Made by a program: the position numbers and the translations under genes. Positions 1 through 54,882 of a stretch of 64,000 nucleotides of DNA are shown here, in pieces. Location of the stretch: IMG/VR virus record IMGVR_UViG_3300028591_000115; one strand, given 5' to 3'. Numbering within the stretch: position 1 is the first letter of the stretch; each line of letters starts with the position of its first letter. The notes under the pieces were generated by a model. It saw nothing but the letters and a program-made list of their open reading frames with translations. It was not told the DNA's origin and did no database searches. Source of the DNA: an uncultured virus (IMG/VR IMGVR_UViG_3300028591_000115) (Duplodnaviria; Heunggongvirae; Uroviricota; Caudoviricetes).

Positions 1-3000
1 AGGAGATAATTTAGGTAAATTCTGGAATGCATTGGCTTTGATCTGTGCAAGAGAAGCAGGAAGATCAACATAAACTAACCGATCATCGCCATAGAAGCAA
101 TTTGCCGGGAATGAATCAATTAAATCTGGTGTTATAGAAACTCCAGATCTATCATCACAACCACTGAAGAAAATATGAGTTACATAAGGTTGCCAGCTTA
201 AGTTACCACCATCCATGCCTTCATCAGCAACAACACGAGTGAAGTCATTACTTTCGATTTTGCTAGATAACAAGCCAATAACATTATATTCTTCAGGATC
301 TCCTCCACCTGGCGCCCATGTAATTTTATTAGGAATACAAATCTTACCACGGAGATAAGAGTTAATCTTAACTGTTACATTAACATTATTACCATTGACT
401 AATTGTACTTCTAATTCGTTCGCGGTTAATGGATTTGCATATACACTTTCCTTTTGGAAAGTTGCATATACTGTTGTGTCTCTATCAATTTTGATAGGAT
501 TTTCATTAGTATGAATTTCTGCATTGTCTTCAAGAGTCAAACGCCAACCTTTAAACTTATAAGTCTAAGTAAGTGGAAGAGCACTATCATCTTTCCAAGG
601 AATTTCATTACTAAATTCTACATTCCTACCAGAAACAGCAATAGTAGTTAATGGAAGATCCCATTCATGAGTAATAGGATTATACTTGCAAACTGGAGTT
701 GTGCCATCATCCATCATATAAGTTACAGTGTAACCATGAACGGCATATACAGCAACAAATGTATAAACAACATTCTCACCTTCAAGTGTATAGTCACTTA
801 AAGAAGCAGAAGTTTTATTTGTACCATTAACGTTAATAACTGTGTTATTACGTTCACCTGGAGTTACATTCTTTTCCATCCAATCATTATGAGTAGAACC
901 CTTTGCTTCCCAATCGAAGGTACTAGATTCTTCAATTGACCAACCTAAGAAGTCATAATGCAACCTTGTAGGCGTATCATAATTATAGGTAATAATTGGA
1001 CTTAATCCTTGAATACCTGGCAAATATTTCTGAGAACCAAATTCATGAATTGAACCATCTGGTAAGTATTCAATGAATCTTGCACGGTTCGCAGGAGTTA
1101 CATAATTTGCAGTAATATCAAGTTTAGGGAAGTGAGTATTCTTCTGATAATAAGCAAAGATTTCAGCTTCATTAATACGAGTTTCCTCAGTATTGTTGAC
1201 ATGTAAACTACCACTGATAGTAGGAATAACTTTTGCGCCCTGAGTATTGCCAACAGGTCTGAAATAATAACTTTCATATCTGATTGCACTATTATCTAAC
1301 TCAGTGTAGAAATGATGAAGCATTTCAAGATCTTTGATTGGGCTTGGGCCCTTCACTGTATCATAAATATAAACCAAACCATTCTTAACATCCTTAGCCC
1401 ACTGGCTTTGATTAGTATATACATACTGTTGATAGGTTACGTAAGAAGATTCGCGTTTATAATAATTAGCAGCTTTAGTACCATCATAAATAGCATCAGG
1501 ATCAACCTGAGTATATGGAGTCCATTCAACATTTGCACAAGAAATGCTTAATTCTTTTGTCGTAGCTGTTGCATCATCTAATGTACCAGCTTGCGCCTTA
1601 AGTTTAATATTATAAAGATAATTTAATAAACGATAAGAACCATAGCCCAACTTGGTGTCATCTAATTGAATCAAGTCAATCTTTGATGTAGCAGAACTTG
1701 GAATTTCACCAGAAGTTTCAAATGCTACTAATTTATCGGTTAAATTATCAATATATAATCCGATTGGATCTGCACCCTCATTTACATGAGTAGGTTTGGT
1801 AGTTAACAAATTAGTTAACTTAAGTGGACGTTGTAAACTAATCATAGTAACAGTTGCAGGCAAATAAACAGTAGTTAAAACACTACCTTGCGGCAATGCA
1901 ACTTCACCAATCTTAGTACCTAATAACTTTAATACCTCAAGTTTTGCGCACTTATTAACTTTAGGGTCAGACTGTAATTCAGACAAGTTACTCAAGTCTA
2001 CTAAGCGAAGCAAGCCTTTTTCACCAACTTCAACAGAAGTTAAAGCAATATTTCTGTAACCGTTCTGATCATCACCAACTTTAAGCTCACGTAAACGTTC
2101 AGCATTAGTAATATCTAATTCATTAAGATATTTATTAGCTAAGTCGCCAATACTAGACAAGTACTGAGGTCCACGAATATAAGCTAATTGCTGTGTTAAT
2201 GCAGTACCTAAATCTGCCTTCTTTTGGATGGAGATTGGAGGTAATACAGTTACATTCTTAGCATTGCCACCAAGTTTAAACTTCTGTACTGCAGAAGGAG
2301 TTTCATCATAAAGTACAGAAACATACTGTGATAAGTATGGAGTAACAATATAAGAAGCACTAGAAGGATAAGTATTAGAAGAAGTTCTATCTTTATCATT
2401 CAAGTTATAACGCATCTTAATCTGAGTCTTTGTGCTTAATGGATCATATGCGCCAGCTGCCCATGCAGAGTCAAGATAATTAAATCTATTTCTAATCATG
2501 GTCTTTCTTTGTAAGCTTCTATCACCCTGTAAGCAGTAGTAATAAAGTGAAGTCTTTTTAATATTACCCTCTTGGTCAGTATAACCAATAGTGGCAGGAG
2601 CAAGATACTTATAATAAGCATCATAGTTCTTCATGACAGGAGACCATTTATCACTACCATTAGTTTCAAAGTAATATTCAACTTTTTCTTGGTTAAAGTT
2701 TGCTTTACGTAATGCATTATACATCTTCATGATTTCACTCTTGAAGCAAATATATATATTGTTCCATAAAACAGAACCATTACCAGAGAAAATAGAATCG
2801 GTAGAACCGGTTTCAGAATATACTTCAACATCTGGAACAGTTTCCCCATCAATTGTACGTGTTACCGCGCGCAATGCCAATGGAGGAGTTGCATCTTCAT
2901 CATAATCCCAATAAACCTGACCAGAGTTATTAACACCTAATTGTGTATCAAGGTCATAGAAAATTGGATACCAAATATATTCGCCACCTGGAGTTTCTGG

Positions 3001-6000
3001 ACCCCAAGAGCTAATCATCATGTTCTTTTGACGAGAGTCATAAAGAAGGAAGAATTCGGTATAAATGAAATAGAATAAGCAATAGTTGAGATTTAAATGT
3101 TTAGTTAATTCAGATTTAAACTTACATAAACGATAACGGTTAGTATCATATTCAAACTTTTCATAAAGATCAACATTAAAACCAACAGCATTAATTGCGA
3201 AATTCATTGTAAAGTGTTTATATGTACCAGCGCTAGTAAGTTGAATACCAATTTCACTTAAATCTTCAATGGCTTCTGCGCCATAATACCAAGAATCATC
3301 ATGATAAATGAAATCATGTGCAGCAATATATTGTTTATCATTAGCTGCATTATTTTCATCTTCTTCACCATTGGCAACGCGAATGAATTTTAATAATGCA
3401 GTTTGATCAGTAACTTTAAGACGTTCAGCGTCATAGTAGTTATTCAATGGATTATTATCTTCATCAAATTGAATATCAACTGTAGTGAACAATCCAGTAG
3501 GAGTAAAGACTTTTTCAATATGAATATCAACAGGTTCATAAACGCCTTCGTTTAAAGCATAATATGTAATTGCTGGTTCATATTCAGTAGAAATTGTTTT
3601 ATAATATACAGGCTCTTCAATCGTTCTCTTAGGACGATTAGCATTAGTATAATCAAAACTTGTTACGTCAGTTTGACGAATCCAATCCCAAAGCTTACCA
3701 AGTTCAACAGTCTTAGCACGCCATTCTCGGGTATCTTCTTCATCTGTCATTTCTGGATAACGCTGTTCAAAGTGGTCTTGAATAAGGTAATAAGGATCAC
3801 CACTCTTAGTAGTACCCTGATCTAACCAATTATCATTACCATCAGTAAACTTAGAATAACCAGCTTGGTTATTGGTTAATTCCCAGCATTGAGCAACATT
3901 AGTATATGTACAAGGAGTATCAACAAATTCATAATCTTCAGTTTCTTCATTAAATGCTGGAGCCTTAAAATATCTTACTTGCTTGGTTACTTCTTCACCA
4001 TCAACTTCTTCAGTTTCAGTTTTTACTTCACCAAGATTTGGCTGTTCTGTATCATCAACAAAACCAAATACATTTTCAGATGCTTTATCAATATTGAAAT
4101 TATAACGACCAATAAATTCAATATTTCCTGTGCTGTCTTCCCAGAATACCAAGATTGGGAATCCCCAAACGGTCGTACGATAAGCTGCAGAATCAGCAGA
4201 GCCAAGAATTCTTTGAAGTGGATGACGTAAATCATAACTTGTATCATGATTTAACAATGCAGTTGCATAATTAGCACCCGCAGTATTATGAACAGAAGAA
4301 CTATCCATATAATCTGCCTTTAAGCAGAATGCTGTGGCTTTTAAACCAACACCAATATCAATAGCACCTTTGTTCTTTTTAGGTGCATCCTTGTTCGCTT
4401 TATAACTAATATATTGTCCAAGATCGCCAGTATAAATATCTTTATTAGCTTCGTCACCATCCCAATGCTCAATACGTAATACATTAGGTTCCATTTCAAG
4501 AGTACCCATCTTTACTGCATCAGACCAGTCAGAAGAACCTTCTTTTACTTGGAATTTAAAGTTTCTACGAGGATATGCTTGAGAAGAAGTACCTTGAACA
4601 TTAATCTAAGAATTGGACATATGGAAATTACGTTTTGGATTCTTAGGATCATAATAACGAATATTAACACCAATTTTATTACCTTTGAAGTAAGGAAGTC
4701 TGTCCTATGTTTTAGAAATTGTTGGCAAGTTAACAGTACTGATAACCATAACAGGAATTAAGCCAGCTTCTTTAGTCTTCAAATAGTCTAAGTTGGAGCC
4801 ATCATCTTTAACAATAGCTTTTCCACAAAGATAACGTGCTTTCTTCTCAGGAAGAGTAGGCGCATCCGCAGTCCAGTTTTGTCCGATGTCAGCATAATAT
4901 AAAGGTTGTTCGTAAATACGAATACCATAAAGATCAACATCGCAGCAATCAGATGTAATACGAATACCCGCTTGTCCATCAAAAGATTGCGCAAATTGAG
5001 CACCTGCATTATATTCAAGAACGCTTGTTAAAACGCCATTGATATAAGCATAAATCATAGGGGTTACATTGTTGCCTGAAGCAGGACCAACAACGAAAGA
5101 AACCTTAACACGAGTATCATCAGTATAACGAGCACTGACAAGGGTAGAACTAGATAAGCTTAAGAACGCTTCTTGAGTACCTAAAACAATACCACGATTA
5201 GAACCATAGTATGTTAAGAAAGCACTATCAGAATTAGAAGAAACAACACGTTCAACTGATTCGCTACCAGTCAATTCATTTTCTTCTGGCATATGACCAC
5301 CAATTGGGCGATCAGGATCATCGCCTTCGGCAATTTTGATTGCTAAACTTTCATCATTACCTTCTTCTTCTGGAGCATAACACTCAAGAGTATAAGGTAA
5401 AGCTGTTCTACTATCACTTTCAAACCATTTATGAGTAGATAATTCGCTATATTTTAAATACTTAGTTTGAGTATTGATTAAACGAGAATAGTCAACAGCA
5501 TTATGTACAGCGAAATCAAACTCATAAGTTTGTCCTGGGCTTGTACCACCACCACTTGCGAACAATGTAGTAGGAATAAATACAGAAGCGCCATTAGAAA
5601 CGCGCAATGCTGTATTACCATCACTATCTTTAATCCAACCATTGTTATACCAGTTAAAACCACTAAGTACAACAGGAGAATCAATAAACTCATCGTTCTG
5701 GTCTTTGGTCTTTAATACTTTAGTATTAGAAGTTACTACTTCATTAGGCCATAAGACACGTTTGGTTGCACGCTCATTATTTGTGCGGCCAGCCGCACTT
5801 AAATATAAAATAGAACCAGAAATTGGCTCTAAGCTATAACGACTTTCAGCAGTAATTGTTACAGTAGAACTCCAAGAAGAATCACCTGCAACAATAGTGA
5901 AAGTATTAGAACCAAGATTATACTTAATAATTTCCCAATTGTTATAATTACCAGTATAGCTTAAATCTTCACTACTAATTTCTTCATCATTAATATAATA

Positions 6001-7227
6001 AGTTACAGTAGTAGTTCCAACCAAGTTTGTTGGATCATACACAACAAAAGGAATCTCAATTAATGTATAGTTTACAAAAGAGGCACCTGAACGCTTAAAT
6101 GGAGACCAAATAATAACACTTGTTCCATCTGTTACCCAACCAATTTCGTAGTGTAAATCTTTACTGATCTCAACTGTTGTTGGACCAATTGTCATTTTTG
6201 CTACAATATCAAGGGTATGTGCGCCATGTGCGGCACCTTCAAATAAGCTCCAAAGTTCTAATACACCACTTGTAGTTTCAATTTTTTGAGTCTTTTGAAC
6301 TCCACCATTTGCAGCATCCACAGTAGCAGTTACTTCAATTTCACCTTGTTGGAACAAGTCTTCAGAAGTAACGCCTTGACCCAATGTAAGCTGCCATGGG
6401 AATGTAATACCGCTAATACCATCAGCTTTACGTTTAATAGTAGAAGGATTCCACTGATTAGTTGGCTCATATCTAACATCAATTACTGAGAAAGATGTGC
6501 TTTCAACTTCAGACTGACGATCATTAACGAATGCTTGAACCTTCAATACTGTTAAACCAGTTCTAAGATAGCTTGCAGGAATATTTAATTGCATTGTACC
6601 AACACCGTTGGTTAATGTCAAACGTCCTGGATTCCAAGTTTCTCTATATGGCTGCTGTGCATTACGGCTTTCATAGAAATTAACTTCTAATTCAGCCTGA
6701 CTTCCACGTTTTGTATCAACAACACGGATAGTCGCCACAGCATTTTGTCCTTTTGCAATCATGCTTGGGAACTGAACTGTATAAATAACACTAATTGAAG
6801 AAGTATCAGTGCCACCACCGCCACCAGATCCAGATACAAGGATTTTTTCTACCCAGCAGAATTCTTCATCAAGCTTCTTAATACGATAGAGGGTTCCATC
6901 ATAATTAATAATAATATCTTCTCTTTGGTAGGTTTCAACTGGCTTATTGATTAAAGCATAAGCTGCATCAATATCGGCACGAGGGAATGGTAAAAGACCA
7001 TCGGAATCATCTGTTGCTACAAGAGTATCCGCACAATCGCCATATACAAATTTAATACCTGAACCGCTCATGACATGACGTTCACCATCTGCATCATCAA
7101 AGTAGATTTTATTTGTATCATAAGCAAAGAAAATCGCACCGGGTGTAGATGGAAATGCTTGACACTATGCTTCTGTTCCACGGTAAGGGGCAAATGCATT
7201 TTCAGAAACCTTAGATGTAACAGCCAT
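1..7227 (-). CDS. Giant tail-tip/fibre-associated protein (>2,400 aa, runs off the window) with a CotH-kinase-like domain, leucine-rich repeats and BspA-type LRR; TAG read as Gln
   Basis: ATG at 7227 after a GGAG RBS. Track ORFs 4705..7071 and 565..4509 are in the same frame, and the hand-translated gaps contain only TAG stops. Motifs: VQGTSSQAYPRRNF, KADYMDSS..HN, GFPI, YNFNIDK, DSRQKN and YDLDT (CotH-like); LxxLxLxxT repeats; YDFLGW/YKFKGW (InlB B-repeat-like); VYVDLPASLAQIKANAFQN (LRR_5-like). Confidence 0.8.
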
Positions 7228-7290: not shown

Positions 7291-9081
7291 TTAGAAAGTC
7301 TCCCACATCAAGTCAATACCAAGTGCAGTTGCTGCATTGGCATCAGCTCTTGTAAATGTGAGTGAATCAGACTTCAAATTAAAGATGCTAGTCATTGTTG
7401 TATTATCTTGGAATGTGATTGTAGAAGTTAATCTTGCCCCAGATGCTTTTGCAGATGCTCCAGCAGTTACAGCGGTAGAACCATTATAAAGCGCGGAAAT
7501 ACCTGCAAAAGATTTCAACTTAAGATGACCAACAGTAATAGTACCAGTCTTAACTGCAGTGATATGGCCGTTAGAAACAGTAATACCAGTAATTGCAGTG
7601 AAGGAAGCAGTACCATATAAATCACCGCCAGTAGCGCCAACTGTAGCATTAGTTGTTGCATCTGCGGTAGGAGTAATTGCAGCATAAGCCTTATGGGCTA
7701 ATGTTACAACCTGATTTGTACCAGAACCGGTAGAGGTTGTAGTTAAATCAGTTTGATCAACACGTAATTTAACACCATTGTTAACACCATTAACTGCGAT
7801 ATATAAATCTTTAGTTGCATCTGCATAAGTCAATTTAACTGTTTGTGTATCATCACCAGATGGGATATAAGTCCAACGAATCTTAGAAGGTTCAATATAT
7901 CCTGCAGCATTTTCAGTACCATCAACAGAGGTAGCAATGAACATGTCGCCTACAGCAGCATCTTGAGTATTACCGGTTGTTAAATTATTAATTATATATG
8001 TATTATTGGTTACAACTTTATAAGTGTCACCAATAGATACAGTACCAGTTGTTAATGGTAATGAAGTAATTGAAGCACCATCAGAAGCTGCACCAACTGT
8101 GCCCTTATAAGACATTGAATCAGCAGCTTTTAATTTTTCTTCAATCGCAGCATTAGTCTGATCAATAGTATAAACAGGTAATACTGCAGTACCATTTACA
8201 AATTTAATATTAGAAGTTGCACCGCTCTTACCAATTTGAATAATTGGAGAAATTGTCGCAGTAGCAGCGTCAATATTAAGAATAGTATCTTTAATGGCTA
8301 ATTTCAAATCACCAGAAGAATTGAAAGAGCCAGTTAAGCTAATCTTTGTACCAATAGTGATCGTGCCATTGGCATCAGATTTAACGTGCGCGATACCATC
8401 ACCGACCAAGTTAATTGTATTAGTCGGAGTTAATGAAGCAGGCTTAGAAACCGTTGCTCCAGTTGCGTCAGTACCAGTGCTATAATTATAAAGATTTAAT
8501 GGAACTTCATTCGCGCTATATGCAGTAGTTGTAGTTTTTAACTCTGTAATTTCAATTAAATCTTTAACACGCATTGTAATGGTATAAATACCATTGGTAT
8601 CTGCCGCACTTGATAATTGCATAGCAGTTGTATTTGCACTAGCTAACTTCCAAGATAGTGTGGATCCAAATGCTGGCGTATTATCAGGTTTTGTAATATT
8701 CAACTTAATAGTTGAAGTAGCATTACCTGCGGTCGTGATATTCCACGCCATCGCTTTGATAATATTACTAATACTTTGACCGTTAATCTGTTGCCAGTCT
8801 CCAGCCGTAGTATCCCATTTAGCTAAAATATTACCATCTTTGACGTAGTATAACGCTGTTGTGCTCTTAGGTTGAGAAGCTGTAGGTAAATCATTTATTG
8901 TAGCAACTTCAATAATATCGCCTAAACGAATACGTTCTACTGTGCTACCACCTGTTGGCGTATAATCAACGTACATTGCACGTTCATCATAAGCAACATA
9001 TACATTACCATCAGTTTTAGTAGAAGGTAAATCAGCCTAAAGCCCACGCAAAAATTTAACTCTTGCGTCAGTTACCGCCAT
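7291..9081 (-). CDS. Tail fibre-like protein (596 aa; TAG at codon 15)
   Basis: ATG at 9081 after AGGAG, in frame with track ORF 7291..8976. Thr/Ala/Gly-rich and beta-type, with a fibre-like N-terminus (VKFLRGLQADLP..DGNVYVAYDERAMYVD). Confidence 0.75.
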
Positions 9082-9096
9082 TATGATTCATCTCCT

Positions 9097-10257
9097 TTAG
9101 CTATGTTTTTTATAAGTGCCCCATCTCATGATATTCTCATCGATTCGAGAATCAACATATTCAGTAACAGTTGCGTATTCTCTATCGTTCCAAGTTAAAT
9201 CACCAATGGAGTCATTCCAACCGTCAGCGCTTAAATAGGTATGCTTACGATTCATATCTTTAAGAGACTATACGGCGGTATTTAATGCTGGAACCACACC
9301 TGCGGCAGTATCAGAAAATAAAGGAATATTAACTTCCCATGCTGAATTACGAACTAATTTTGTTCCATTAACATAAACGTTTTGTAATCCAACTGGTTTA
9401 CTTAACATTGTTTCTAAATTTTCGACCCTTAAGATAAGCCCAGTTCCAGACGTTTGTCCAATAGTAGCTGTTCCAACTACAGATTGTAAAGTGTTTACCT
9501 TGTGAGTAAGGCTTGCTAAATCTGCCGTTTGAGATTCATTTATCTAATGAATATCAGTCAACTATTGCTTGATCGAAGTTACAGAAGTTTGTAAATCCTT
9601 GACATCTGTTAAGTTCGGTTCATACCAGCCCAATGACCCATCGCTAGAAACTCGCGGTTCGAGATCAGATGACCATGGGTGGTTTGCATCAACTGTGACT
9701 AACTCATAATGGGCTGGCACAGGCGGAATATATCCTAACTTGCCAGGTTCGCCTTGGCTTTCAACCTCTGGAATGAATTGATAATATTGCTTTTCATAAT
9801 CTTTTAATGAAAGAACACCATCATTAAGTTGCAATACTTTCTAATTAATGTTGAGGTCAAGCGTTCCAGATACACTGGCTAACTTTTCATCTAACGTTTC
9901 TCCGGATGGAAAAATAACATCTTTACTTTTGATACCGATATTAAGCTACTTCCAAACTTTTTGATCGGTATACATAAATAAATCTGTTGTTCCATTAGGT
10001 TCTTTAATTACCAATATATCATTAATTACAGCATATTTTCCATCCATTACGCGAGCTATTGCTGCCTCTATTGCTTCATTTTCTTGCAATACAGTTTCAT
10101 AATAATGCGAATTGCCAATTGGAACCGCACCACGATATAACTCATGCGTATCTAATAAAAAATATAATGAATTTGGATCTTTTTTAGCCAAAGCATTATA
10201 TTCTGCACGGGAGCCGAATCTAAACAGCACTTTTGAAGAAGATTTTTTCTGTGCCAT
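9097..10257 (-). CDS. Tail fibre/adaptor-like protein (386 aa, TAG-recoded)
   Basis: Joins track ORFs 9946..10272 and 9562..9834 through TAG and ends at TAA 9097. N-terminus FRFGSRAEYNALAKKDPNSLYFLLDTHELYRG, followed by a coiled-coil-like segment. Confidence 0.7.
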
Positions 10258-10308
10258 TATTTCCCCTCCCATCGTTCTCTATTTATAGAGAATGAAATAG
10301 GTCTATTA

Positions 10309-10695
10309 TCAATCATTGACCTCTTCCACATAATCAATTAATAAGGGATAGGTATCATCTGGAAAGCGAGTATTATATTGACCGAGCCGAGTCAAAGAAC
10401 TTGCTTCACATTTAATATTATAAATTGGCTATAAAGCCAATACTTCAGAAGGGATATCATAATAAAAATTTCGATCATCGTCTTGATTTATTCCAGAGTA
10501 AGCAAGTACTCTAATGGGAAATGGAGTATCATTGACAAAAAAGCCAAACCCTGGAATAGCAGTGATTCGTAATTCAATTATACGAGTACTGGCACCAAAT
10601 AAAGTTCCTGTAATTAAATTGGCGCGAGTAGCGCCAACTGAATTGCGAGAATCTCCTTCTGAAAAATATCTAATTTGTTTCTTTTTTGTAGTCAT
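10309..10695 (-). CDS. Hypothetical tail-module protein (128 aa, one TAG)
   Basis: Track ORF 10429..10695 continues through TAG to TGA at 10309; AGGAG RBS. Confidence 0.7.
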
Positions 10696-10706
10696 ACTTT
10701 ATCTCC

Positions 10707-13700: not shown

Positions 13701-14009
13701 CCATTCCGGATATTTATCATTAACAAAATTTTTCTTACCAATAGCAACAATATATTTAGTATGAATCTACCAATCTAATTCATTTACATTAGAATCTAAT
13801 GTAAACATAGTTAAACTACAAGTACGACGACAAGCAGAAGAACCATCTATTGAGATATTACCGCCTTCAATGTTGCCGGTAATATCTGCAATAGGATGTT
13901 CATTGAAATCCAAAACAATAATTTTCGCCAAGGTTTCATGAATTGGATATTCATCTAACTGTTTTAAAAAATCTTTATCTCTTAATGGTTGCGGATTAGG
14001 ATCAAACAA
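10707..14009 (-). CDS. Baseplate/tail hub-like protein (~1,100 aa, TAG-recoded)
   Basis: Five track fragments share one frame (start offsets are multiples of 3). N-terminal GNISIDGSSACRRTCSL and C-terminal ITLSCVPIYWFEPNQRI...GEYIIKSFSY resemble phage tail hub proteins. Confidence 0.7.
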
Positions 14010-14014
14010 TTAAA

Positions 14015-38800: not shown

Positions 38801-38931
38801 TTAATTCCCATATTACCTAATGATAAATTCTAAATATTTGTTAATTGTGCATTTAATTTCTATAATGCTTGTTGGGCCTGAGTAGTATCAGCATTAAATC
38901 CCAACGTAACTTGGACCCTATTCCCTGCCAA
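26800..38931 (-). CDS. Tape measure protein (~4,043 aa, heavily TAG-recoded)
   Basis: TTG start at 38931 after AGGAG. Seventeen track fragments from 38208 to 27006 are all in this frame, and the gene ends at TAA 26800. TP901-type TMP segment (TASSVEEIATALQKVAATA...TRQAASTVGTAMNTILSR), long Ala/Glu/Lys helical regions, and C-terminal AATGGLIDYTGPAWVDGT..PEYVLNADQT. Confidence 0.85.
27451..27578 (-). repeat. Coding tandem repeat encoding (RRDGDDG/RRDGG)n near the tape measure C-terminus
   Basis: Translation GDDRRDGGRRDGDDGRRDGDDGRRDGGRRDGDDGRRDGGDDRR; a ~35 nt DNA unit is repeated with 36 nt period. Confidence 0.85.
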
Positions 38932-38972
38932 TTTACTCACACTCCTTTTTCACAAATAAAAAAAGATTGGTA

Positions 38973-39497: not shown

Positions 39498-39520
39498 ACT
39501 AAAGTCCTCCTTTTTCTCTT

Positions 39521-39549
39521 ATAATACCAAAATTATTTTAAATTGACAA
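39521..39549 (-). promoter_or_regulatory. Possible SigA-type promoter for the chaperone-tape measure unit
   Basis: TTGTCA-17 nt-TATTAT with a TG extension on the minus strand. Confidence 0.4.
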
Positions 39550-40732: not shown

Positions 40733-41644
40733 TTAAGCCTGACCAAAGGTTGCCTGATCTTCAATAATCTGAATAGCAGCCAATACTTTCTTGGTCTTAT
40801 CGAACTTGGTATAATCTGGGAATGCATCCATTGTGAAGGTGAAGGTAGAAGGATCACCAGTTGGAGACAAACTAAAGGTAAAGTTAGACTGAACTTTACA
40901 ATTAGGAATAATGAACTCTGCAGGATAATCTTCACCAGTAGCCTGATCACGGAATAAGGTAGATGCTTCAAGATAGTAAGATCCACCAAACTTAGAAGCT
41001 TCAATATTAATCTGCTTTACACTCTTAGCAGCTTCTACATAGTAATCTACATAAACAACTGCGCCATTAGCAATAGCTGGAACAGTGGCAGTTAAGCCAA
41101 GTTCGGTATGACGAGCATCAGCATCATAAGCAGCTTTCCAAGCATTAAGAGCTGCACTTAATTCCATATCCTGATGTACTTCAGAAGAAGGAATAAGCAT
41201 AGGCATCTTACTAGAATCAATAGCACCATCACCGGTCATAGCCATAACATATAATTTACATTCAGACTTCGCAACAGAAGGAACTTTGCTAAGAACAATG
41301 TGTCCATTAACAACTTCAACCTGCTCAGTAGTATGTACATAAAGCTTTTCAGATGCACTTGCATCAAGCAAGCCAGCACCAGAAAGGATAGAGAAGCTCT
41401 CTGGAGAGATCAAAGCATCTTCCATTGTGAAAGTAACTGTACGATCACCTTCCCAAGCAACAAGACGTGGATTACCGCGTCCGCCCTGGGCGTATACTGT
41501 AGTTGCAGCACCTTCAAGAGAAGAAGTCTTTAAAGTATCGAAATAAAGAACTGGAGCGTCCTTATCAAGATAAAGCTTTCCAAAATAACCTTCCGCCTTT
41601 CTCTTCAAAACGACGTCGCAAATTTCGCGTACACCAAATTTCAT
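40733..41644 (-). CDS. Major tail (tube) protein (303 aa, no TAG)
   Basis: FDTLKTSSLE..TVYAQGGRGNPRLVAWEGDRTVTFTMEDAL and FTFSLSPTGDPSTFTFTMD motifs; strong GGAGG RBS; position between connectors and tape measure. Confidence 0.8.
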   Translation of the reverse strand: MKFGVREICDVVLKRKAEGYFGKLYLDKDAPVLYFDTLKTSSLEGAATTVYAQGGRGNPRLVAWEGDRTVTFTMEDALISPESFSILSGAGLLDASASEKLYVHTTEQVEVVNGHIVLSKVPSVAKSECKLYVMAMTGDGAIDSSKMPMLIPSSEVHQDMELSAALNAWKAAYDADARHTELGLTATVPAIANGAVVYVDYYVEAAKSVKQINIEASKFGGSYYLEASTLFRDQATGEDYPAEFIIPNCKVQSNFTFSLSPTGDPSTFTFTMDAFPDYTKFDKTKKVLAAIQIIEDQATFGQA

Positions 41645-45477: not shown

Positions 45478-46689
45478 TTAATCCTTAGTGTAGTAGGTCT
45501 TGCCATCTGCAAGCTCAACATCAGAGGTCTTTACATAAGATCCATTAACGAGTTCATAATAGGTGCCAATATCTGCTACCTTAGGATTTGTTACTACAGT
45601 ATAAGTGTCAGTAGTTGGAGTAGTAGAATTGCTCTGCTTATCACCAGTATAAACTGCATACTGACCAGCAAGTTCAGTATCCTTATATACGCAAATATCA
45701 GGAGTCATTACGACACCAACGCCGACTTTCTTGTATACCTGAATTTCACGGCTACGATCCTTGTTGACATATTCATCAACAATTGTAGAGCCTTCCATAA
45801 CAACCTTAACTGGCTTTACATTACCTGGGAGGATATAGCAGAAACCTGGATCAATAACCTTAGTGGTATGAGTAGCATCAGTGAAACCCTGTGGAAGAAT
45901 ATTAATCACATGATTCTTATAAGAAGCAAAGCGACCATTATTCCAAATGGTATCCTTCATGCTATCAGACCAAGAAGCGTAAGTACCATTACCATTGCTT
46001 GGAAGAATCTTCTGAGCGAACTCTTCAGTACAATAAATGGTAGGAGTGCCATAAGCGGCAGAAATAGCGATCAAACGATCAAATGCCTTTTCATCGAAAC
46101 CATTGGTTACAACAGTATTCAATGCAGGAAGCTGAGTAAGACCTTCCTTAAGGGCAGCACCGATTTCCCAATGAATGAGTTCTTCGATACCTTCCATAAC
46201 GATACGGGTCACTTCAGCAAAATCAGCACGGCCATCAAGGAACTCTTCAAGACCGATCTGAGCAGCACCACCGATAGCGCTAGTCTGTACTTCGATAGGT
46301 GTATCTTTACCAAGCTTGAATACTTCGTAGATACCAGCAAGACCAACTTTAGTGATGAACTGCTTTGCGCGCTGACGATCATGTTTACGCCAGAAGATTG
46401 TAGAATTGCCCTGAGCAATAGTCTTTACCTCTGCGAACTTTTCAAACTCTTCCTCAACTTTCTTAGGAAGAATATCATCCATAGTCTCTTCAATTAAAGA
46501 GAAAATGGTGTTCTTATTTTCACGATAAAGGGCGAAAGTACCAGCTAATTCGTTCATTTCAGAACGAAGGGTTTCATTAAGAGCATCATAGCTCAAATTT
46601 TCGCCATTGAATGAATAAGCAACAGGAGCAGAGCGGTCAGCTTTAGCAGTTGCCTTCATCAATTTAAGAAGTTCATTTCTTTCTAACAT
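45478..46689 (-). CDS. Major capsid protein (403 aa, no TAG)
   Basis: Position after portal, protease and decoration genes; size; high-expression codon bias; followed by a hairpin. Confidence 0.75.
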   Translation of the reverse strand: MLERNELLKLMKATAKADRSAPVAYSFNGENLSYDALNETLRSEMNELAGTFALYRENKNTIFSLIEETMDDILPKKVEEEFEKFAEVKTIAQGNSTIFWRKHDRQRAKQFITKVGLAGIYEVFKLGKDTPIEVQTSAIGGAAQIGLEEFLDGRADFAEVTRIVMEGIEELIHWEIGAALKEGLTQLPALNTVVTNGFDEKAFDRLIAISAAYGTPTIYCTEEFAQKILPSNGNGTYASWSDSMKDTIWNNGRFASYKNHVINILPQGFTDATHTTKVIDPGFCYILPGNVKPVKVVMEGSTIVDEYVNKDRSREIQVYKKVGVGVVMTPDICVYKDTELAGQYAVYTGDKQSNSTTPTTDTYTVVTNPKVADIGTYYELVNGSYVKTSDVELADGKTYYTKD

Positions 46690-47542: not shown

Positions 47543-48874
47543 TTAGTTCATTTCTTTGGCGGTTTCACGCACGGCCTTAATCCAAGCAGGTGCGTTATCC
47601 TCACCATCATTACCATTTAATTCATAAATGGTAGGCTCTTTTTTGGAAGTATCCTTTTTATCGTCATCAAGGCTAAAAGAAACCTTGTTACGAACACAAA
47701 TAATAGATAATTTAGCTTCGATATCATTGAGACTATAAGTGTCAATATTATCAATGCAATCCTTCTTATCTTCATCAGAAAGCATATAGAAGCTATCAAT
47801 CATATCTTGCTTTGCTTTACGATCAGCTTCAACTTTAAATGTACGAAGTGGTTCAACTTCAGCCTTTAAAGCTTCAAACTGTCTCTGGAGTTCAGTAAAC
47901 TGAACAGCAAGATTCTTATAGAGATCAGATTCAGCGACTTCATCATCAGTTAAAGAATGCTTACCAAATGGTGGCTTCTTCTTCTTATCTTCGTCATCTT
48001 CTTCTTCCTTCTTGTCGTCACCGGACTCAGGCTTCTTTTCATCTTCGCCGCCCTTATCCTCTTCATCCTTCTTTGGAGGGAATGGATTCTCTTTCTTTTC
48101 TTCCTTTTTGTCTTCTTCTTCCTTCTTCTTGAAGTCAACATCAGGGTTTTCCAAAGTAGGATCATTTACATTCTTGTTTTCTTCATTCATAGAAGTAAAT
48201 CCTCCTTTGCTTAAAGCAGATTTAATATCCTCCATCAAGGAGAATAATTGGTTCTTGAAGTCGCCATCATACGAGAACTGTGCTGCAATACCCGCACCTT
48301 CAAAACAAGGTTCAACGTCTTCTCCAAGAATACAAAGCTTTTGTATCATTGCTTCATCAATTATGAAAAACTTTGGCAATCCTTTATCATCAAATGTCCA
48401 AGAGCCCTTCAAATTTTCTTCATTGAGTTCCATAGATTGATTATTTCCATGTTCTAAAATTCTTTTAGATTCTGGATATAATGTTGTCCATAAATACCCC
48501 TCAGTTAATAAGTAAGTGCGTCTAACTTGATTGTCATCAATAAAGTCTTGGAACCAAATCTTTGAACTAGAATCGACAAAGCCATAAGCCTTAGTTCTAT
48601 CAACAATACGGAACTTACCATCGCCAACTTCAATACTACGGTTGTGACCAGAGAAATCTTCCTCTTTATTATCATAAAATCCAGCAATCGGGCAACCATG
48701 TAAAGTCTTTGCCATCTTAATAGCGGATTCTTTGTCAATCACACTATGATTGCGGTTCTCGCCAAGATAACAAACTTTAATATCACAATGGCTCAATAAT
48801 GGATTATCTGACATTGGAGCCACATTAAGTAATTCAACCGTTCCATCAATCGGAACGCTAACATGTTTAGGCAC
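47543..48874 (-). CDS. Prohead protease/scaffold fusion (443 aa, no TAG)
   Basis: GENRNHSVI, GYLWT, NQSMEL and LCILGEDVEPCFEGA protease-like motifs, then an acidic/lysine-rich linker and a coiled-coil scaffold region. Confidence 0.75.
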   Translation of the reverse strand: MPKHVSVPIDGTVELLNVAPMSDNPLLSHCDIKVCYLGENRNHSVIDKESAIKMAKTLHGCPIAGFYDNKEEDFSGHNRSIEVGDGKFRIVDRTKAYGFVDSSSKIWFQDFIDDNQVRRTYLLTEGYLWTTLYPESKRILEHGNNQSMELNEENLKGSWTFDDKGLPKFFIIDEAMIQKLCILGEDVEPCFEGAGIAAQFSYDGDFKNQLFSLMEDIKSALSKGGFTSMNEENKNVNDPTLENPDVDFKKKEEEDKKEEKKENPFPPKKDEEDKGGEDEKKPESGDDKKEEEDDEDKKKKPPFGKHSLTDDEVAESDLYKNLAVQFTELQRQFEALKAEVEPLRTFKVEADRKAKQDMIDSFYMLSDEDKKDCIDNIDTYSLNDIEAKLSIICVRNKVSFSLDDDKKDTSKKEPTIYELNGNDGEDNAPAWIKAVRETAKEMN

Positions 48875-48879: not shown

Positions 48880-50517
48880 TCACTCCTTTCCCGCAGCTTC
48901 ACGGTTAGCTATAGTTTTATCAGATTTCTATTCATTGCTTTTTTCCGGTCTGCCCATTTTTTTATCCTCGGCCGCACCCTTAATCTAAGCCTAAGCTTTA
49001 TTAGTAGCAGACTAAGCGTTTGATCCAGTCTTACCACCGAGTACATCCTCACCACGTAAAGTAGAACTCATGAGAGGCGGAATCATTAATTCTTGTAATT
49101 TCATTACATTATTCTCAAAATAAGCAGTAGCATAAATAGAACTTTGTGAATGTCCAAGAGCAATCTAAGGTAACACTTTGGAGAAACCAAGTTGTGTATG
49201 CTCTTTATATAACTTAGACAATTCTTTATAATTATTAATAGTAGTTTCAAGCATATTAAAATGCAAACACCACTTTTTATTTCCTGGGAACTTATTATTT
49301 AAGATCCTAGTAAATAACTCATCAAACTCAAAAATTAAATCTCTGATACTTGCTTCATCAACAGCACTCGCTTTCTCAAGAGCAAGATTACTATTAGAGT
49401 TAAATAGGTTTTGAGAAACACCAGCTTCATTATAAACAGTGCGCTCAACTTTTTCAAGTTCATCTCTTGTTGCTGTAGTATTCTTATCAGCAAGATCGGC
49501 AACATCTACATCTGCAAACGTTGTCATAACATCTACGCCAATAGCACGCTTCAACATCTATACTGTATTATTATGAATATCTTTTGCTTCATCAACGTCA
49601 AATATCAAATCACCATTTTTATCTAATGGTAATTTTTGAATAATGACTTTTAATAACTTCTGCATCATCTTACGACGATCCAGATCTTGCGCTTCGTCCA
49701 AGTCCAATATCTTTGAAGTAACATTTACAAGCATTGGAACATCTTGTCCAGCAATATTAATCTTAAAAGCACAATCTGGATCTAACAACCACCATGTGCC
49801 CTCAGTATATCCATTCTTTGGATTGTTCAATTTGCCCTTCTTATAAGCAATATAAGCTTCAGAAAATTCTGAAGGATACATTTTTAAAACTCTTAAACGA
49901 GTTTCAATATCCGGAAATTGTTCATCAAAAAATCTTGGATTAAATTCTACTGCTGGTCTATTACCTACTTTGAACCGAGAGCGGCAATATGCAATTGGTA
50001 ACTATTGGAATGTAAAGCCATTTGAGGTTTCTATAATATAGCCATAATAGCATCCATTAAGAATTACCTGCAATGCCACATCTTGGCACAACTTTTTCAC
50101 TCCTGCATGATCAAAATAATCTAGAGCTTCAGAAAACTCCTTTAAAATTTTGTCATTCTTCTTTTCATTCTCCTCGATTACATAAGGAGTAATATACCAA
50201 TCATATCTATAAAGACCGGCAAAATATTTAACCAATCTTTCATACATACCACTTACTTCAAAGAAGTAATTTGATATTTCTCTTAATAAAGGATAATCTT
50301 TTCTAGCCAATGCCGCAAGAACAGCCAATTTATTATAAGTTTTCTTGCTAGTCTTCTTAATGGCACCAAGATCTAATACAGCATCATCAAGTGTCTAGAA
50401 ATAATTAACTTTTACTTTTCCATAATCTACTTGACTACCATAAATGTCATGAAGTTCTGGACGTTGGACTATTGAGAAGCCTTTGGAATGGATTAAATCC
50501 TAACGATTCTATTCCAA
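48880..50517 (-). CDS. Portal protein (545 aa; TAG at codons 3 and 6 and elsewhere)
   Basis: TTG start after AGGAGG; joins 50002..50328, 49558..49881 and 49165..49557; C-terminal GRPEKSNE[TAG]KSDKTIANRE; ends at TGA 48880; lies between terminase and protease. Confidence 0.8.
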
Positions 50518-50529: not shown

Positions 50530-50895
50530 TTAATATCCAGCTTTTTCCATGATATAATCATACGAAATTAAGTTTTCATCTGTATAAGGGATTTCGATTA
50601 GATTATATTCATTTAATGCGCAGAATCTGCGCTTATTTTTATCGTTGAACTATTGACGATAGAAACCTTGCTTTCCACCATATTTACTGGAAGGTTCAAA
50701 ATGTTGTTTTCCCTAATATTCAATTAAGAAATCCACATTACCATCATCATCAAACACGCAAAAGTCAAATCTTAATGGGCGACCATTTGGACTATTTAAA
50801 CCTTCGAATGATTGCTCCATGGTGAAATTGAAGCCTGCATCGCGCAATATTTCTTCAATCTTAATCTCTCCTCTTGAAGCTCGCAACTTTGACAC
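50530..50895 (-). CDS. PD-(D/E)XK-type (Vsr/DUF559-like) endonuclease (121 aa, TAG-recoded)
   Basis: LRFDF...LIEY[TAG]GKQH...DKNKRRFC...LIEIPY. The IEYxGxQH motif is restored when TAG is read as a sense codon. Confidence 0.7.
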
Positions 50896-50896
50896 C

Positions 50897-52627
50897 TCAA
50901 TTCATAAATAACATATCGCTAAATCTTTTTTTATTACGTTTACGTTTTTTATCTTCTTCTAATTTTATCCAATACAGACCATATTCAAAAGCAGAAAATT
51001 TATCCTTTTTAATACCTTTATTTGCTTGCTTCAAAATGATATTAACACCTTCGTTTTCTTCACGAAGATTCATCATTTCTTCCTTTAATATGGAAGTCAA
51101 AGTAAATGGTTTAAGATATTCTGCCCGTTCTTCGGGCTTCATCTCTTGACCACGCTTGGTGGCCATTAACTTAATTTTTGCAACACGCTCATCAATTAAC
51201 ATCTTAACTCTGCCAGCTTGCATCATTGATTGTACATTACCATGTACTTCAGTATTAATTGGCGCGTTAGCTTTAATTATCCATAAAGCATTTTCTTCAC
51301 AAACCGCAGTTCTATATTTTTTATACTCGCCTTCTTCGTCATTATCAACACCAAAATCAGCAATAAGATCTCCAGTATCAGGATCAGTTTGACCTTTTAC
51401 TAAATAATCAACTAAACCAATACCAAGACCGTTACCATCAATAACAACTTTTTTGGCTTTATATTTATAATATAATTTTTTAATACGAATACATTGTTCT
51501 TCAAAATGCATATCACTTAATGGATAGATATTGACTAAACTAATTAAAGCATTTCCCGCAGTTTGAGGATTAACCTTAAACACACAAATTACTGTATCAC
51601 ATCCACGTCTACCAACGTCGACAGAAAGTACATAATAAGCATTTTTTGTACTACGTCCAGAAAATTCATACTCTGGTTGCTTTAATATTCTATTATGATC
51701 AAATTGCTCTGCATTAAAGAATGCATCTTCTATTGTGCCGGACCAAACAGATTCATATTCACGTTCAAATGAAGATTCATTAAACGTACCGTCCATTTTA
51801 AGATCTCTAATAAAGTTCTTATCGAGCAAATCCATTAAAACCGGAATTCTCCAAGTACCACCCATGACCATCGCGCGATCAGGCTTTACAATCTCCCAAC
51901 ACAATAATTGAATTAATTTATCATAAGCGAATGTATTCTTCCAACCTGCTGTTGTAACATAAATCTATGATTTATTTAATACTTCATTATCATCTTTACC
52001 ACCACACGCTGCACGTCTTGAAACGTTCATCGTAGGGATAATAACTTCATTAAGAATCGTTCCATCAATACCGACGCACTCCTCCATGAGTCCGCCATGG
52101 CGGCGTTGTCCTCTCGAAGTTTCACGAGCTGCTATATTGTCCAGCACTGACCCGTTCTTAAATATGTATCTAACATAATCTTTTCCCTCCATTGTCTTGC
52201 CGCGACGCCAATCAATCTCATCGCGCAATGGTGGGATTAAATGACATAATTCTTGCACCTTAGCTTTAATAATACTTGATGCCTATTCCTTACCACCAGA
52301 TGTAACAAATAATTTTGCTCCTGGATACAGTATACAGCGAATTATTAAAATTAATGCGGCCAAGAATGATTTTGAGTAAGCACGTGGGAATACTGCGTAA
52401 GTATATTTGTAACGCATTGCCGCACGTAAGAACACTCTCTAATAAAAGAATAAATGGAAATTTTCCGGATTATTCTTTTCAAGTAAAAAATCAACAAATA
52501 AATCTGGATACTCTCGCCAGAAAGAAACCCATTTACGAGCCACAGGTATGCAAGCCCGCACACGTTCTTCTGACAAACCAATTTTATCTACTCCAGTTTT
52601 TAAGTTGAGTAAATCCTAAAGCGCCAT
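50897..52627 (-). CDS. terL: Terminase large subunit (576 aa; TAG at codon 4)
   Basis: ATG overlaps the upstream TAA. Motifs: FY[TAG]RVFLR Q-motif, PRAYSKS Walker A-like, RGQRRHGGLMEE Walker B-like, YVTTAG, and an RNase H-like nuclease domain (LSVDVGR, VIDGNGLG, KDKFSA). Confidence 0.9.
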
Positions 52628-53808
52628 TATTCATCATCCTCTCCGAGGAGTTCACGAATAGTAGCTTCATCTTCTTCTTGTTCACTTTCAACGAATTCAT
52701 AATGTTTTAAGAAATCATTATCATTAAGAACTTCATCCTCAATTTCTTGTAGATCTAAATCCTCAATCTCAGTAGTTTCAGAATCTTCTTCTTTTGCTTC
52801 TTCTCTTGCCATGGTTCTAACCGCGTTCTCAATAAGATTACCAAGATTCATTTCTTCAGTAACTAGCTTATGAGTATATCCACGAAGATCAGCAAGCGTT
52901 TCATCTACACGATCTTTTGGTTCATCTGTATAATATCTTGGAATAAAGTCTTCTCTTTCACACAACAGGATAAACTCGTCAATAGCGGAAACAAATTCTC
53001 CGCTCTCTGCTTTGTTCTGCGCAGCAGTAAATTTCGCAGACTTCATAAGCGTATCATAAACTTTAGACATTTTCTGAAATCCTTCAATGTCACCAAGATC
53101 AACTAACTAATGACACTTCAAAGAAGTCTTACAAATTAATTTTAAATAATCTTCATGAGCCGGGGTAACAATATCAAATGCCGCCATCATTTCTTGGTAT
53201 AATTTCTCTAACTGAACCCACTCATATGGCCTATAAGCTTTTCCCCATTTAAGTGTAAGATACTTCTTATCTTCTTCAGTTAAATCATCATCAAAGAAAT
53301 CTGGGGCATTTAAATCTATAGGAGCGGCACCTGTCTATTCGGCTTCCGCAGCTTTAAAATCTTCCGGCTTTTCTGGCATAGTACCAGTTTGAATAGCATT
53401 TTCAATTTCTTCTCCGGTATAACCCTATCGCGCCATAACTTCAGCTTTCTTCGCATTCATCTCTTCGCGCAATCTCTCGGTATCGGCCCAAGTATATGAA
53501 CTAAATTGTTTCATACGCATCTTAGATAAATAACGACCAAGAATAGTCATACCAGTTGTCTTTCTTGGATCTTTAGCATAACGATCCAATAAAGTTGTCC
53601 ATTCCTCTTCAATATAAGGAACGTCAATATCTTCCAGAATCCACAAATAAGTTTTAGGATCCCAGTTATCTACGTGTCTAGTTAAACATTTTTTACATTC
53701 AGGTAAAAACCCATCAGGATATTTATCAGTTCTTTTTGTTTGGTAAAACTGATTTTCGTCCATTGTACGATTACACGTTTTACAATACAATGTTTTTCCA
53801 TCGGCCAT
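52627..53808 (-). CDS. Zn-finger protein upstream of terL, candidate small terminase (393 aa, TAG-recoded)
   Basis: CKTC...CKKC N-terminus; joins 53425..53808 and 52627..53070 through three TAGs; acidic C-terminus. Confidence 0.6.
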
Positions 53809-53811: not shown

Positions 53812-54882
53812 TTAGCACTCCTTTTTCTTGCTATTGCGGCACTTCTTACAAATACTATAAAATCCATCTTTACTCGTTTTATTAATACTAAAGAATTTTG
53901 AATGAGCTAATTTAACTTCGCCACACCGGCTGCATTTCTTCCACTTACCTTTTTCTACATAAGTGAAATACCACATTATCCATTCGTCTTGTGCCTTTTG
54001 CGCAATTAGTTTTGGAATCTTATTCCGCCACAAACTGCTTATGTATTCTATTGAGTGCGTAAATTGGAACTCTTGTTCAAGTAATGCTTGTATTTCTACG
54101 TTCTGTAATCGTTCTTGTTTATACTGAACTATGCGTCTATACATCGGAAAATCCGCTAATGCTCTTTCTACCAGCGGCGTAAAATCCTAAATCATATACC
54201 ATGTATCGCCTTCGAAATTACCTTCAGATCGTCCTTTTAATAAGGGATACAATTGAAGAATTTCGTTTATAACTCGATAATCACAGAATGAAACACCTTC
54301 ATATTTAATTACAGCATTATCATTGTCATCATATTCTATCCATTCATTCCAAGGTAATGGTGGGAACGTTTTCATACCTCTCGATAATTTAGTGAATACA
54401 ATGGGACGCTTGTAAGCATTTTTTACAACATATTGGTCTTTCCGCAATTCAATTAGCGTACTTTTTATTATATACGCCGCACGTCCGGTTGCAGTCTTTT
54501 GTAACCTTTCCCAGAATTCAATACTTTCTCTGAGACGTTTTAACTACGGTATATCTTCTATGTCTTGCTTTGTGATAGTAACTTTAGGTTGAAAAATTGT
54601 ATTTTTTCCATTATCAGTAATTAAATTGTAAATTCCATCTTCACCGTTCTCTAATTGACTGACCAGACCTTCATAAGAAATTTCTCGTTTATTAATCGTT
54701 GCTAAACGATTTTCAGTAAGAATTTTCTTCTCCTTTTTCTCTTGTTTCTCCATACAAAGAACCAAGTAATCCGCTAGAGCCTCTAGATACTACTCGCTTG
54801 GGTCGGGTACTTCTAACAAGATCTATTCTACTAGTTTGCGTCTTTCTTCTGGAGAATCAATAGTATAATCTAATTGAATTAT
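53812..54882 (-). CDS. Hypothetical DNA-binding protein with C-terminal Zn finger (~356 aa, TAG-recoded; start uncertain, ATA 54882 or TTG 54891)
   Basis: Joins three track fragments in one frame; CSRCGEVK...DGFYSICKKC; AGGAG RBS at 54892-54896. Confidence 0.65.

What the first reader, a model, noticed from the sequence alone, without database searches (positions are those of the whole stretch)
1..54882. The morphogenesis arm uses an alternative genetic code (TAG = Gln, code 15)
Seen: the minus-strand fragments end in TAG, resume in the same frame and end at TAA/TGA, often with TAATG-style coupling to the next gene. TAG sits where Gln is expected: terminase FY[TAG]RVFLR, nuclease IEY[TAG]GKQH and H[TAG]PRIKEI. 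Established: TAG-to-Gln recoding is known in Lak phages, some crAss-like phages and other gut phage clades. Inference: this is a recoded SPbeta-like siphophage of Firmicutes, and its suppressor tRNA lies outside the window.
Basis: partly seen in the sequence, partly recalled or inferred. Interest (0 to 1): 0.8.

Follow-up and report, generated by a model that had tools for sequence, protein, structure and literature searches.

The report
Gut phage reads TAG as glutamine
The virion genes of this gut phage use the stop codon TAG to mean glutamine, a known trick, and its close relatives carry an odd stop-reading tRNA with a spare glutamine anticodon that may explain how the host's own enzyme loads the right amino acid.

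Summary
Confirmed. Read with TAG = Gln, 26 minus-strand genes fill 98.9% of 1-54,882. They hold 163 in-frame TAGs in 19 genes and none ends in TAG. TAG columns match Gln in standard-code relatives as often as CAA and CAG columns do (19 of 41, against 51 of 123 and 24 of 50). Code 15 is known, proteomically proven in crAss-like phages, and described in a related phage (phAss-1).

Three additions:
1. TAG is shut out of the high-copy capsid, capsid-adjacent and tail-tube genes across the clade, while the tape measure carries 67, so read-through must be about 97% or better per codon.
2. The arm's first gene has a host-type promoter and a TAG in all 28 recoded homologues, a candidate gate.
3. This phage's tRNA cluster was not reached. 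Its nearest relatives encode no Glu/Gln synthetase but carry an 89-93-nt CUA tRNA whose extra arm shows a Gln (CUG/UUG) anticodon loop in canonical register (37 of 39 such tRNAs; shuffles 2.9).

My paper searches found no description of this tRNA; this scan had noted it before on other DNA. Its role in charging is inferred, not shown.

The parts
1..7227 (-). Large virion-associated protein, at least 2,409 aa, runs off the left end; only 4 TAG among 81 Gln codons
   Evidence: (PHROG 14959, unknown function)
7291..17265 (-). Six tail/baseplate-region genes (596, 391, 128, 1100, 953, 128 aa); 24 TAG in all, none in 16879-17265
   Evidence: (PHROG 1887 tail protein for 10707-14009)
17292..26693 (-). 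3,133-aa tail-region protein, 28 TAG
26800..38940 (-). Tape measure protein, 4,046 aa, 67 TAG / 178 CAA / 6 CAG
   Evidence: (PHROG 34405, E 2.5e-47)
38973..40651 (-). Two genes between tape measure and tail tube (174 and 372 aa), 6 TAG
40733..41644 (-). Probable major tail tube protein; 0 TAG, 0 CAA, 9 CAG
   Evidence: PHROG 2729 virion structural; weak PDB hit to tail tube proteins, E 0.016; a homologue annotated major tail protein; codons
41660..45400 (-). Six head-tail joining region genes; 11 TAG, including H[TAG]PRIKEI at 42347-42349
45478..46689 (-). Major capsid protein (HK97 fold); 0 TAG, 0 CAA, 11 CAG
   Evidence: model pLDDT 71.6; Foldseek hits to HK97-fold capsids and encapsulins, best E 7e-8; codons
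46713..47519 (-). Capsid-adjacent protein (decoration or scaffold, inferred from position only); 0 TAG, 0 CAA, 14 CAG
   Evidence: no useful PDB hit
47543..48874 (-). Probable prohead protease/scaffold (from position); 0 TAG
   Evidence: (PHROG 3313, unknown function)
48880..50517 (-). Portal protein, 10 TAG
   Evidence: (PHROG 2739, E 7e-80)
50530..50895 (-). Small nuclease, 2 TAG, both Gln in all 12 standard-code loci
50897..52627 (-). Terminase large subunit (YonF-like), 4 TAG; aa 63, 115 and 221 are Gln in 4/4, 3/3 and 3/4 cultured phages
52627..53808 (-). Gene upstream of TerL, in the place of YonG (probable small terminase subunit, from position), 3 TAG
53812..54882 (-). First gene of the arm, PHROG 5767 ('sigma factor'), ATA start; 4 TAG, the first at codon 20; candidate translational gate
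   Evidence: (E 8e-48)
54931..54959 (-). Host-type promoter (TTGACT-17-TATAAT) facing the recoded arm; a similar site in 26 of 28 recoded and 7 of 7 standard-code relatives
55037..64000 (+). Early region: short genes, most with their own near-consensus sigma-70 promoter, GC up to 56%; TAG used neither in frame nor as a stop in credible genes

Best explanation
This is the late (morphogenesis) arm of a 165-195-kb tailed gut phage of a clade in which UAG means Gln. Shown from sequence: UAG is a third Gln codon in low-copy late genes, never ends a late gene, is absent from credible early genes and is purged from the highest-copy virion genes. Inferred mechanism: early genes are made by the host's standard machinery. 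A phage amber-suppressor tRNA, encoded in a tRNA cluster outside the window, then accumulates, is loaded with Gln by the host pathway (no phage Glu/Gln synthetase) and out-competes RF1 almost completely, so full-length portal, terminase, tape measure and the arm's first regulator appear only late. In the nearest relatives the suppressor has two anticodon arms: a CUA arm placed canonically after the D-arm, and a short hairpin whose 7-nt loop shows CUG or UUG, placed canonically before the T-arm. The likeliest role of the second loop is to give the host synthetase the normal Gln anticodon while the CUA arm decodes. Odds: TAG = Gln 0.97; a phage CUA tRNA does it 0.9; this phage's copy has the second arm 0.85; the arm serves charging 0.55.
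For: Coverage and stop usage. Majority residue in standard-code relatives: TAG columns Gln 19 of 41 (next Glu 7, Lys 5, Ala 3, Tyr 2), CAA 51 of 123, CAG 24 of 50. Against G003/G004, window TAG aligns mostly to TAG, CAA or CAG (21 of 27 and 22 of 30). In seven recoded relatives 790 of 1,584 tested TAGs lie inside alignments to standard-code proteins and only 12 look like stops. CUA tRNA with long arm in 7 of 9 near-complete recoded records (one, G008, a variant loop) and 0 of 6 near-complete standard-code records. No PF00749 synthetase in 35 of 35 records. The release factor in 3 of 35 is RF2 (SPF motif). In a scan blind to the variable arm, 37 of 39 non-Tyr-type long-arm CUA tRNAs have a closed NN-YUG-NN loop (shuffles mean 2.9, max 9 of 2,000), against 0 of 30 ordinary Leu/Ser/Tyr-type long arms. 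CUG 56 and UUG 14 of 70; 9 nt from loop to T-stem in 59 of 70, as in the phage's own tRNA-Gln. Two-sided pair changes in all 3 hairpin pairs. TAG share of Gln codons across recoded relatives: capsid 2/252, capsid-adjacent 0/271, tail tube 0/122, against 23-51% in ten other genes.
Against: No proteomic or biochemical data. This phage's own tRNA was not reached. G014 is recoded and has only a single-arm 71-nt CUA tRNA; G032 (92% complete) gave none; phAss-1 and G017 carry single-arm copies beside the two-arm one. So the arm is not required in every host. E. coli GlnRS is known to charge CUA-anticodon tRNAs without help (PMC9976931, passages read). The second stem is often only 2-3 bp. By a stricter 'best hairpin' rule the count is 26 of 42 (shuffles 0.36). 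The 7/9 versus 0/6 contrast is between related genomes, not independent events. The two nearest relatives have no RF2, and no protein family was common to all seven recoded genomes and absent from three standard ones, so how RF1 is beaten is unexplained. 22 of 41 TAG columns have another majority residue, as for CAA.
Confidence: 0.8

Rival explanations
1. TAG = Gln, but the distribution of TAG is drift plus cost, not a timing device. AT pressure turns CAG into TAG once a suppressor exists, and selection removes TAG only where translation demand is highest.
For: TAG replaces CAG in low-copy genes (tape measure 67 TAG: 6 CAG) while high-copy genes use CAG only. TAG, CAA and CAG swap freely between close relatives. 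The most abundant late proteins are not gated at all.
Against: All 28 recoded homologues of the arm's first gene keep a TAG, 24 within the first 31 codons and 13 at codon 20, where the alternative is mostly Lys rather than CAA/CAG. Early genes avoid TAG even as a stop (0 credible among 43 ORFs; standard relatives end 8-15% of genes in TAG). The two views are compatible: drift may create the gate.
Confidence: 0.45
2. The second YUG hairpin is not a synthetase signal. It is a relic of a duplicated anticodon arm, a decoy for anticodon nucleases or modifying enzymes, or an alternative decoding arm that lets one tRNA also read CAG/CAA.
For: Single-arm suppressors exist in the clade; the stem is short; GlnRS can accept CUA anticodons.
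Against: The triplet stays CUG or UUG while stems and acceptor arms change with compensation. The distance to the T-stem is fixed. Pair 1-72 is U-A, A-U or unpaired in 55 of 58 and N73 is G in 53 of 70, which fits Gln identity (review passages). A relic would decay.
Confidence: 0.4
3. TAG is read as another residue (Ser, Leu, Tyr, Pyl) or ambiguously, because the suppressor has a long variable arm and G73, the signals of seryl-tRNA synthetase.
For: Long arm plus G73 are SerRS identity elements (PMC7609411, passages read); ARAGORN labels the tRNA Pyl.
Against: Among 41 TAG columns Gln leads 19 and Tyr 2, and neither Ser nor Leu is among the eight listed residues (39 of 41 columns). Invariant Gln positions of TerL and the nuclease carry TAG.
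Confidence: 0.03
4. The TAGs are assembly errors or mark a decaying prophage.
For: None beyond the fragmentation under table 11.
Against: 163 in-frame TAG and no in-frame TAA or TGA in 18,099 codons; 62 of 80 relatives show the same bias; strains in other studies.
Confidence: 0.005

Closest known systems
Phage phAss-1 (OQ749652) and its group, Babkin et al. 2023, PMC10607447 (first 20,000 characters and further passages read)
   Same: Code 15 in structural genes, CUA tRNAs, no own synthetase, long tape measure, related to Enterococcus phage EF1. One of its suppressors has the same two-arm design, though the paper's main text never uses the word 'variable'.
   Different: TerL only 44.6% identical and on its own long branch; 136 kb against 165-195 kb; human gut, whereas holders of this phage are labelled sheep, bovine or unspecified gut.
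Agate (or Sapphire/Jade) recoded clades, Borges et al. preprint 10.1101/2021.08.26.457843 (first 30,000 characters and passages read; supplements closed)
   Same: Large gut phages, late genes recoded and replication genes mostly not, code varying within a clade, RF2 in a few TAG-recoded members.
   Different: Their genomes were not available to compare. No TGA-recoded member appeared among my 85 loci, although Agate has them. In the parts read the preprint tests genes enriched in TAG and reports no exclusion from the capsid gene ('capsid' occurs 0 times) and no suppressor structure.
Code-15 crAss-like and Lak phages (Peters et al. 2022, PMC9523058, passages read)
   Same: TAG read as Gln in structural proteins, shown there by mass spectrometry.
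   Different: Bacteroidetes hosts and unrelated virion genes; here a YonF-type terminase and probable Firmicutes host, and no proteomics.
SPbeta-like siphophages (YonF terminase group: Sundance, Geobacillus E3, Enterococcus EF1/H1, Lactococcus 949)
   Same: TerL homology and the YonG-YonF-portal-scaffold-capsid order.
   Different: All four cultured records checked use the standard code; TerL identity 33-50%; SPbeta itself is not among the top 40 hits.

Membership tests
Code-15 (TAG=Gln) phages | Coding density rises under table 15 and not under table 4/25 | tested here: met
Code-15 (TAG=Gln) phages | In-frame TAG aligns to Gln in homologues | tested here: met
Code-15 (TAG=Gln) phages | TAG concentrated in late structural genes, scarce in early and replication genes | tested here: met
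   window; relatives G004, G009, G013
Code-15 (TAG=Gln) phages | Phage-encoded CUA suppressor tRNA | tested here: inconclusive
   absent from window and from about 18 kb of extension; present in the two nearest long relatives
Code-15 (TAG=Gln) phages | Gln detected at TAG sites in protein | not testable with these tools
   needs proteomics
Agate clade (Borges et al.) | TerL falls in the Agate clade of their tree | not testable with these tools
Agate clade (Borges et al.) | Clade mixes codes 11, 15 and 4 | tested here: inconclusive
   63 code-15 and 22 code-11 loci of 85, no code 4
Phassvirus (proposed genus) | High genome identity to phAss-1 and one branch with it in TerL trees | tested here: not met
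   TerL 44.6%; separate long branch
SPbeta-like siphophages (broad sense) | YonF-type terminase and conserved head-gene order | tested here: met
SPbeta-like siphophages (broad sense) | Temperate life style (integrase, repressor, arbitrium) | not tested
   none seen among the window genes scanned; rest of the genome not held

The most novel reading that the evidence does not exclude
These phages switch the genetic code with one RNA alone: a suppressor tRNA with two anticodon arms, one (CUA) for the ribosome and one (CUG/UUG, in canonical register to the T-arm) that the host's Gln-charging enzyme reads, perhaps by swapping which arm stacks on the D-stem. The switch is then wired to late expression through early UAG codons in a regulator transcribed from a host-type promoter, while the highest-copy virion genes are kept UAG-free.
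Probability: 0.4. Interest if true: 0.85.

Novelty: new variant of a known kind. Interest (0 to 1): 0.55.

Why it matters
The recoding itself mainly matters for annotation: under table 11, 84% of this arm's codons lie behind a false stop. The open question in the papers read is how recoded phages without their own synthetase or release factor get Gln onto an amber tRNA and beat RF1. A tape measure with 67 UAG codons needs about 97% read-through per codon for a 13% yield, so the clade's suppressor must be unusually good. A tRNA that separates the decoding anticodon from the identity anticodon would be a new design principle, testable with a few transcripts and of use for genetic-code engineering.

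Tried and rejected
TGA or TAA read-through: no comparable gain on the coding strand.

An early coverage heuristic labelled L046 as TGA-recoded. Codon counts inside alignments showed it is standard code, so the 'tga' group is one standard-code genome and four standard-code loci sat in its 'rec' group. The test was redone with corrected labels. L044 (2 TAG) is counted as code 11 but is ambiguous.

Reaching this phage's own tRNA cluster: no own genome is held. G001 adds 14 kb and L434 a further 4.5 kb, both without tRNAs; the next step found nothing; five other records did not match 1-19,000.

Phage Glu/Gln synthetase: 0 of 35 records. Code-switch protein by presence/absence in 7 recoded and 3 standard genomes: none universal. 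Rfam: no match in window or extensions. Pfam named none of 12 late proteins. The correlation of TAG share with a codon-bias index was not significant in the window (rho -0.33, p 0.12). Model R1 matches its own training sequences by construction, so one search counts mainly for the absences. The TerL tree is the quick version: at least 2-3 code changes, direction not established.

Paper searches for the two-arm tRNA and for capsid-gene exclusion gave no matching listing; only listings were seen for most papers, subscription journals are missing, and supplements of the Borges preprint could bear on clade identity and suppressor sequences. The function of the arm's first gene rests on one PHROG hit and stays open.
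Full report
1. Observation. Under table 11 the minus strand of 1-54,882 breaks into fragments; with TAG read through it closes into 26 genes covering 98.9% of the stretch. Whole-window minus-strand cover by ORFs of at least 100 aa is 0.588 (table 11), 0.838 (TAG) and 0.623 (TGA); the TAG figure omits the gene that runs off the left end. The genes hold 163 TAG, 484 CAA and 111 CAG in 18,099 codons, and 19 of 26 have a TAG. The 25 complete genes end in TAA (18) or TGA (7), with overlaps such as TAATG and ATGA. The genes are a terminase, portal, HK97-fold capsid, probable tail tube and a 4,046-aa tape measure.

2. Not an artefact. G001 is identical over 44,000-63,000 but may share the window's source. 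Twenty of 24 listed runs, from 12 studies, hold the stretch or part of it, labelled sheep, bovine or unspecified gut where labelled. Of four laid, X4, X5 and X8 (three studies) carry strains about 98.5% alike, and an RNA-library contig of X3 spans all ten portal TAGs unchanged; the difference table was cut, so single sites in the other three were not read. Among 80 IMG/VR terminase loci 62 have in-frame TAG and 18 do not (one ambiguous); phAss-1 does and four cultured phages do not.

3. Meaning of TAG. With TAG masked as X, the majority residue in standard-code relatives was Gln in 19 of 41 alignable TAG columns, against 51 of 123 for CAA and 24 of 50 for CAG; Glu led 7, Lys 5, Ala 3 and Tyr 2. 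The other 122 TAGs had no alignable standard-code partner. TerL positions 63, 115 and 221 are Gln in 4 of 4, 3 of 3 and 3 of 4 cultured phages. Against G003 and G004, window TAG faces TAG, CAA or CAG in 21 of 27 and 22 of 30 cases. TAG behaves as a third Gln codon. In seven recoded relatives only 12 of 1,584 TAGs tested against standard-code homologues sat where a stop would be expected.

4. Where TAG is used. The capsid, capsid-adjacent and tail-tube genes have 0 TAG, 0 CAA and 34 CAG, against 163/484/77 elsewhere (Fisher p 4e-4). Across recoded relatives the same three genes have 2 of 252, 0 of 271 and 0 of 122 Gln codons as TAG, ten neighbours 23-51%, and two (44810-45400, 47543-48874) 3% and 11%. 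That these three are the highest-copy virion proteins is established for capsid and tail tube and inferred for the third. The early region (55-64 kb plus 14 kb from G001) has short genes with their own sigma-70 promoters (29 sites, shuffles 11.1). Of 43 ribosome-site-led ORFs, 41 end in TAA or TGA and the two TAG-ended ones look spurious, while three standard-code relatives end 17 of 224, 19 of 198 and 35 of 228 ORFs in TAG. With 67 TAGs in the tape measure, per-codon read-through of 0.90, 0.97 and 0.99 gives 0.09%, 13% and 51% full-length product: reassignment must be near complete.

5. A candidate gate. The arm's first gene (53812-54882, PHROG 5767 'sigma factor') starts at ATA, where several relatives have ATG, GTG or TTG, behind a host-type promoter found in 26 of 28 recoded and 7 of 7 standard-code homologues. 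All 28 recoded homologues carry TAG, 24 within the first 31 codons and 13 at codon 20, where the alternative is mostly Lys. Inference: the gene can be transcribed early but translated only after the switch. Against this, another column (nuclease 82) is also TAG-biased, and the homologues are related.

6. The machinery. The window has no tRNA and its own genome is not held. The nearest long relatives, G004 (193 kb, TerL 95%) and G003 (149 kb, 97%), carry large tRNA clusters with CUA tRNAs of 93, 89 and 92 nt. No Glu/Gln synthetase domain was found in 35 records; three carry a release factor, RF2 by its SPF motif, and G003 and G004 do not. The extra length is a hairpin whose loop reads like a tRNA-Gln anticodon loop. 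A pattern scan fixed on the CUA arm and T-loop but blind to the variable arm returned 116 stretches, of which 80 were listed and analysed. Of 46 distinct long-arm CUA tRNAs, 7 are tyrosine/serine-type and lack the motif, and 37 of the other 39 have a closed 7-nt loop with CUG or UUG at the anticodon place (shuffles mean 2.9, max 9). A stricter rule gives 26 of 42 (shuffles 0.36), and 0 of 30 ordinary long-arm tRNAs pass it. Over 70 distinct sequences, including a second scan that was biased to the motif, the triplet is CUG 56 and UUG 14, and the loop lies 9 nt before the T-stem in 59, the spacing of the phage's own tRNA-Gln. All three hairpin pairs show two-sided changes (rows were partly chosen for the motif). 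The long-arm form is in 7 of 9 near-complete recoded records and 0 of 6 standard-code ones; G014 has a single-arm suppressor only and G032 gave none. phAss-1 has the same design.

7. Mechanism. Shown: codon meaning, distribution, and the tRNA's anatomy in relatives. [quoted passage not shown] Inferred: the CUA arm decodes, the YUG arm supplies the identity anticodon, and accumulation of this tRNA times late translation. Unexplained: how RF1 is overcome; no protein family tracked the code across 7 recoded and 3 standard genomes.

8. Comparison. Code 15 in gut phages, its bias to late genes and its variation within clades are described (Borges preprint), proven by proteomics in crAss-like phages (PMC9523058) and reported for the related phAss-1 group (PMC10607447). 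This phage is not a Phassvirus (TerL 44.6%) and may belong to the Agate clade, which I could not test. Six searches for the two-arm tRNA and one for capsid-gene exclusion gave no matching listing. I noted the second loop; the scan's earlier notes describe it on other genomes, and one of them gave the two-fold wording used here.

9. Verdict. The recoding is a new member of a known kind; the clade's two-anticodon suppressor, the exclusion of TAG from high-copy genes and the candidate gate make it a variant with testable mechanism. The most interesting part lies outside the window and rests on relatives. Interest 0.55.

Noticed in passing
window 63224-63675 (+): A 450-nt GC-rich unit between a sigma-70 promoter and a terminator with no convincing ORF; 87% alike over 205 nt in G003 and 78% over 87 nt in G004; no Rfam match; folding z-score 0.36. 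Candidate non-coding RNA.
   Followed up: partly
window 62817-63100 (+): A second promoter-to-terminator unit of about 285 nt without a clear ORF; folding z-score -1.84; no match in relatives held.
   Followed up: partly
window 57259-64000 (+): Array of short early genes, most with a near-perfect TTGACA-17-TATAAT promoter and often a GC-rich hairpin between them; GC rises from about 33% in the late arm to 45-56%. It resembles a host-takeover module (recalled comparison).
   Followed up: partly
window 54880-54882 (-): ATA start codon, shared by most relatives and replaced by ATG, GTG or TTG in others, for the first gene of the late arm.
   Followed up: partly
window 27441-27579 (-): Tandem repeat (21/36/57-nt periods) encoding GDDGRRD/GGRRD units near the C-terminus of the tape measure protein.
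   Followed up: no
G004 3,793-20,105 and 172,076-192,991: Two nearly complete tRNA sets (71 genes) with two different two-arm suppressors in one record; it may be a chimera of two related phages or a true duplication.
   Followed up: no
G003 90-437; G004 186014-186418; G009 34207-34542; G013 8155-8454; G014 18468-18869: A small, nearly TAG-free protein family inside the tRNA cluster of 5 of 7 recoded and 0 of 3 standard-code genomes; function unknown, a weak candidate for a code-switch helper.
   Followed up: no
L145 1688-1759 (G008); G011 109750-109821; G029 10465-10813: ARAGORN calls a tRNA with anticodon UUA in G008, one with UCA in G011 and a tmRNA next to the suppressor in G029.
   Followed up: no
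L157, L188, L189, L205, L208, L223, L228: A separate set of tyrosine/serine-type long-arm CUA tRNAs without the Gln loop in other viral contigs; these may read TAG as another residue.
   Followed up: no
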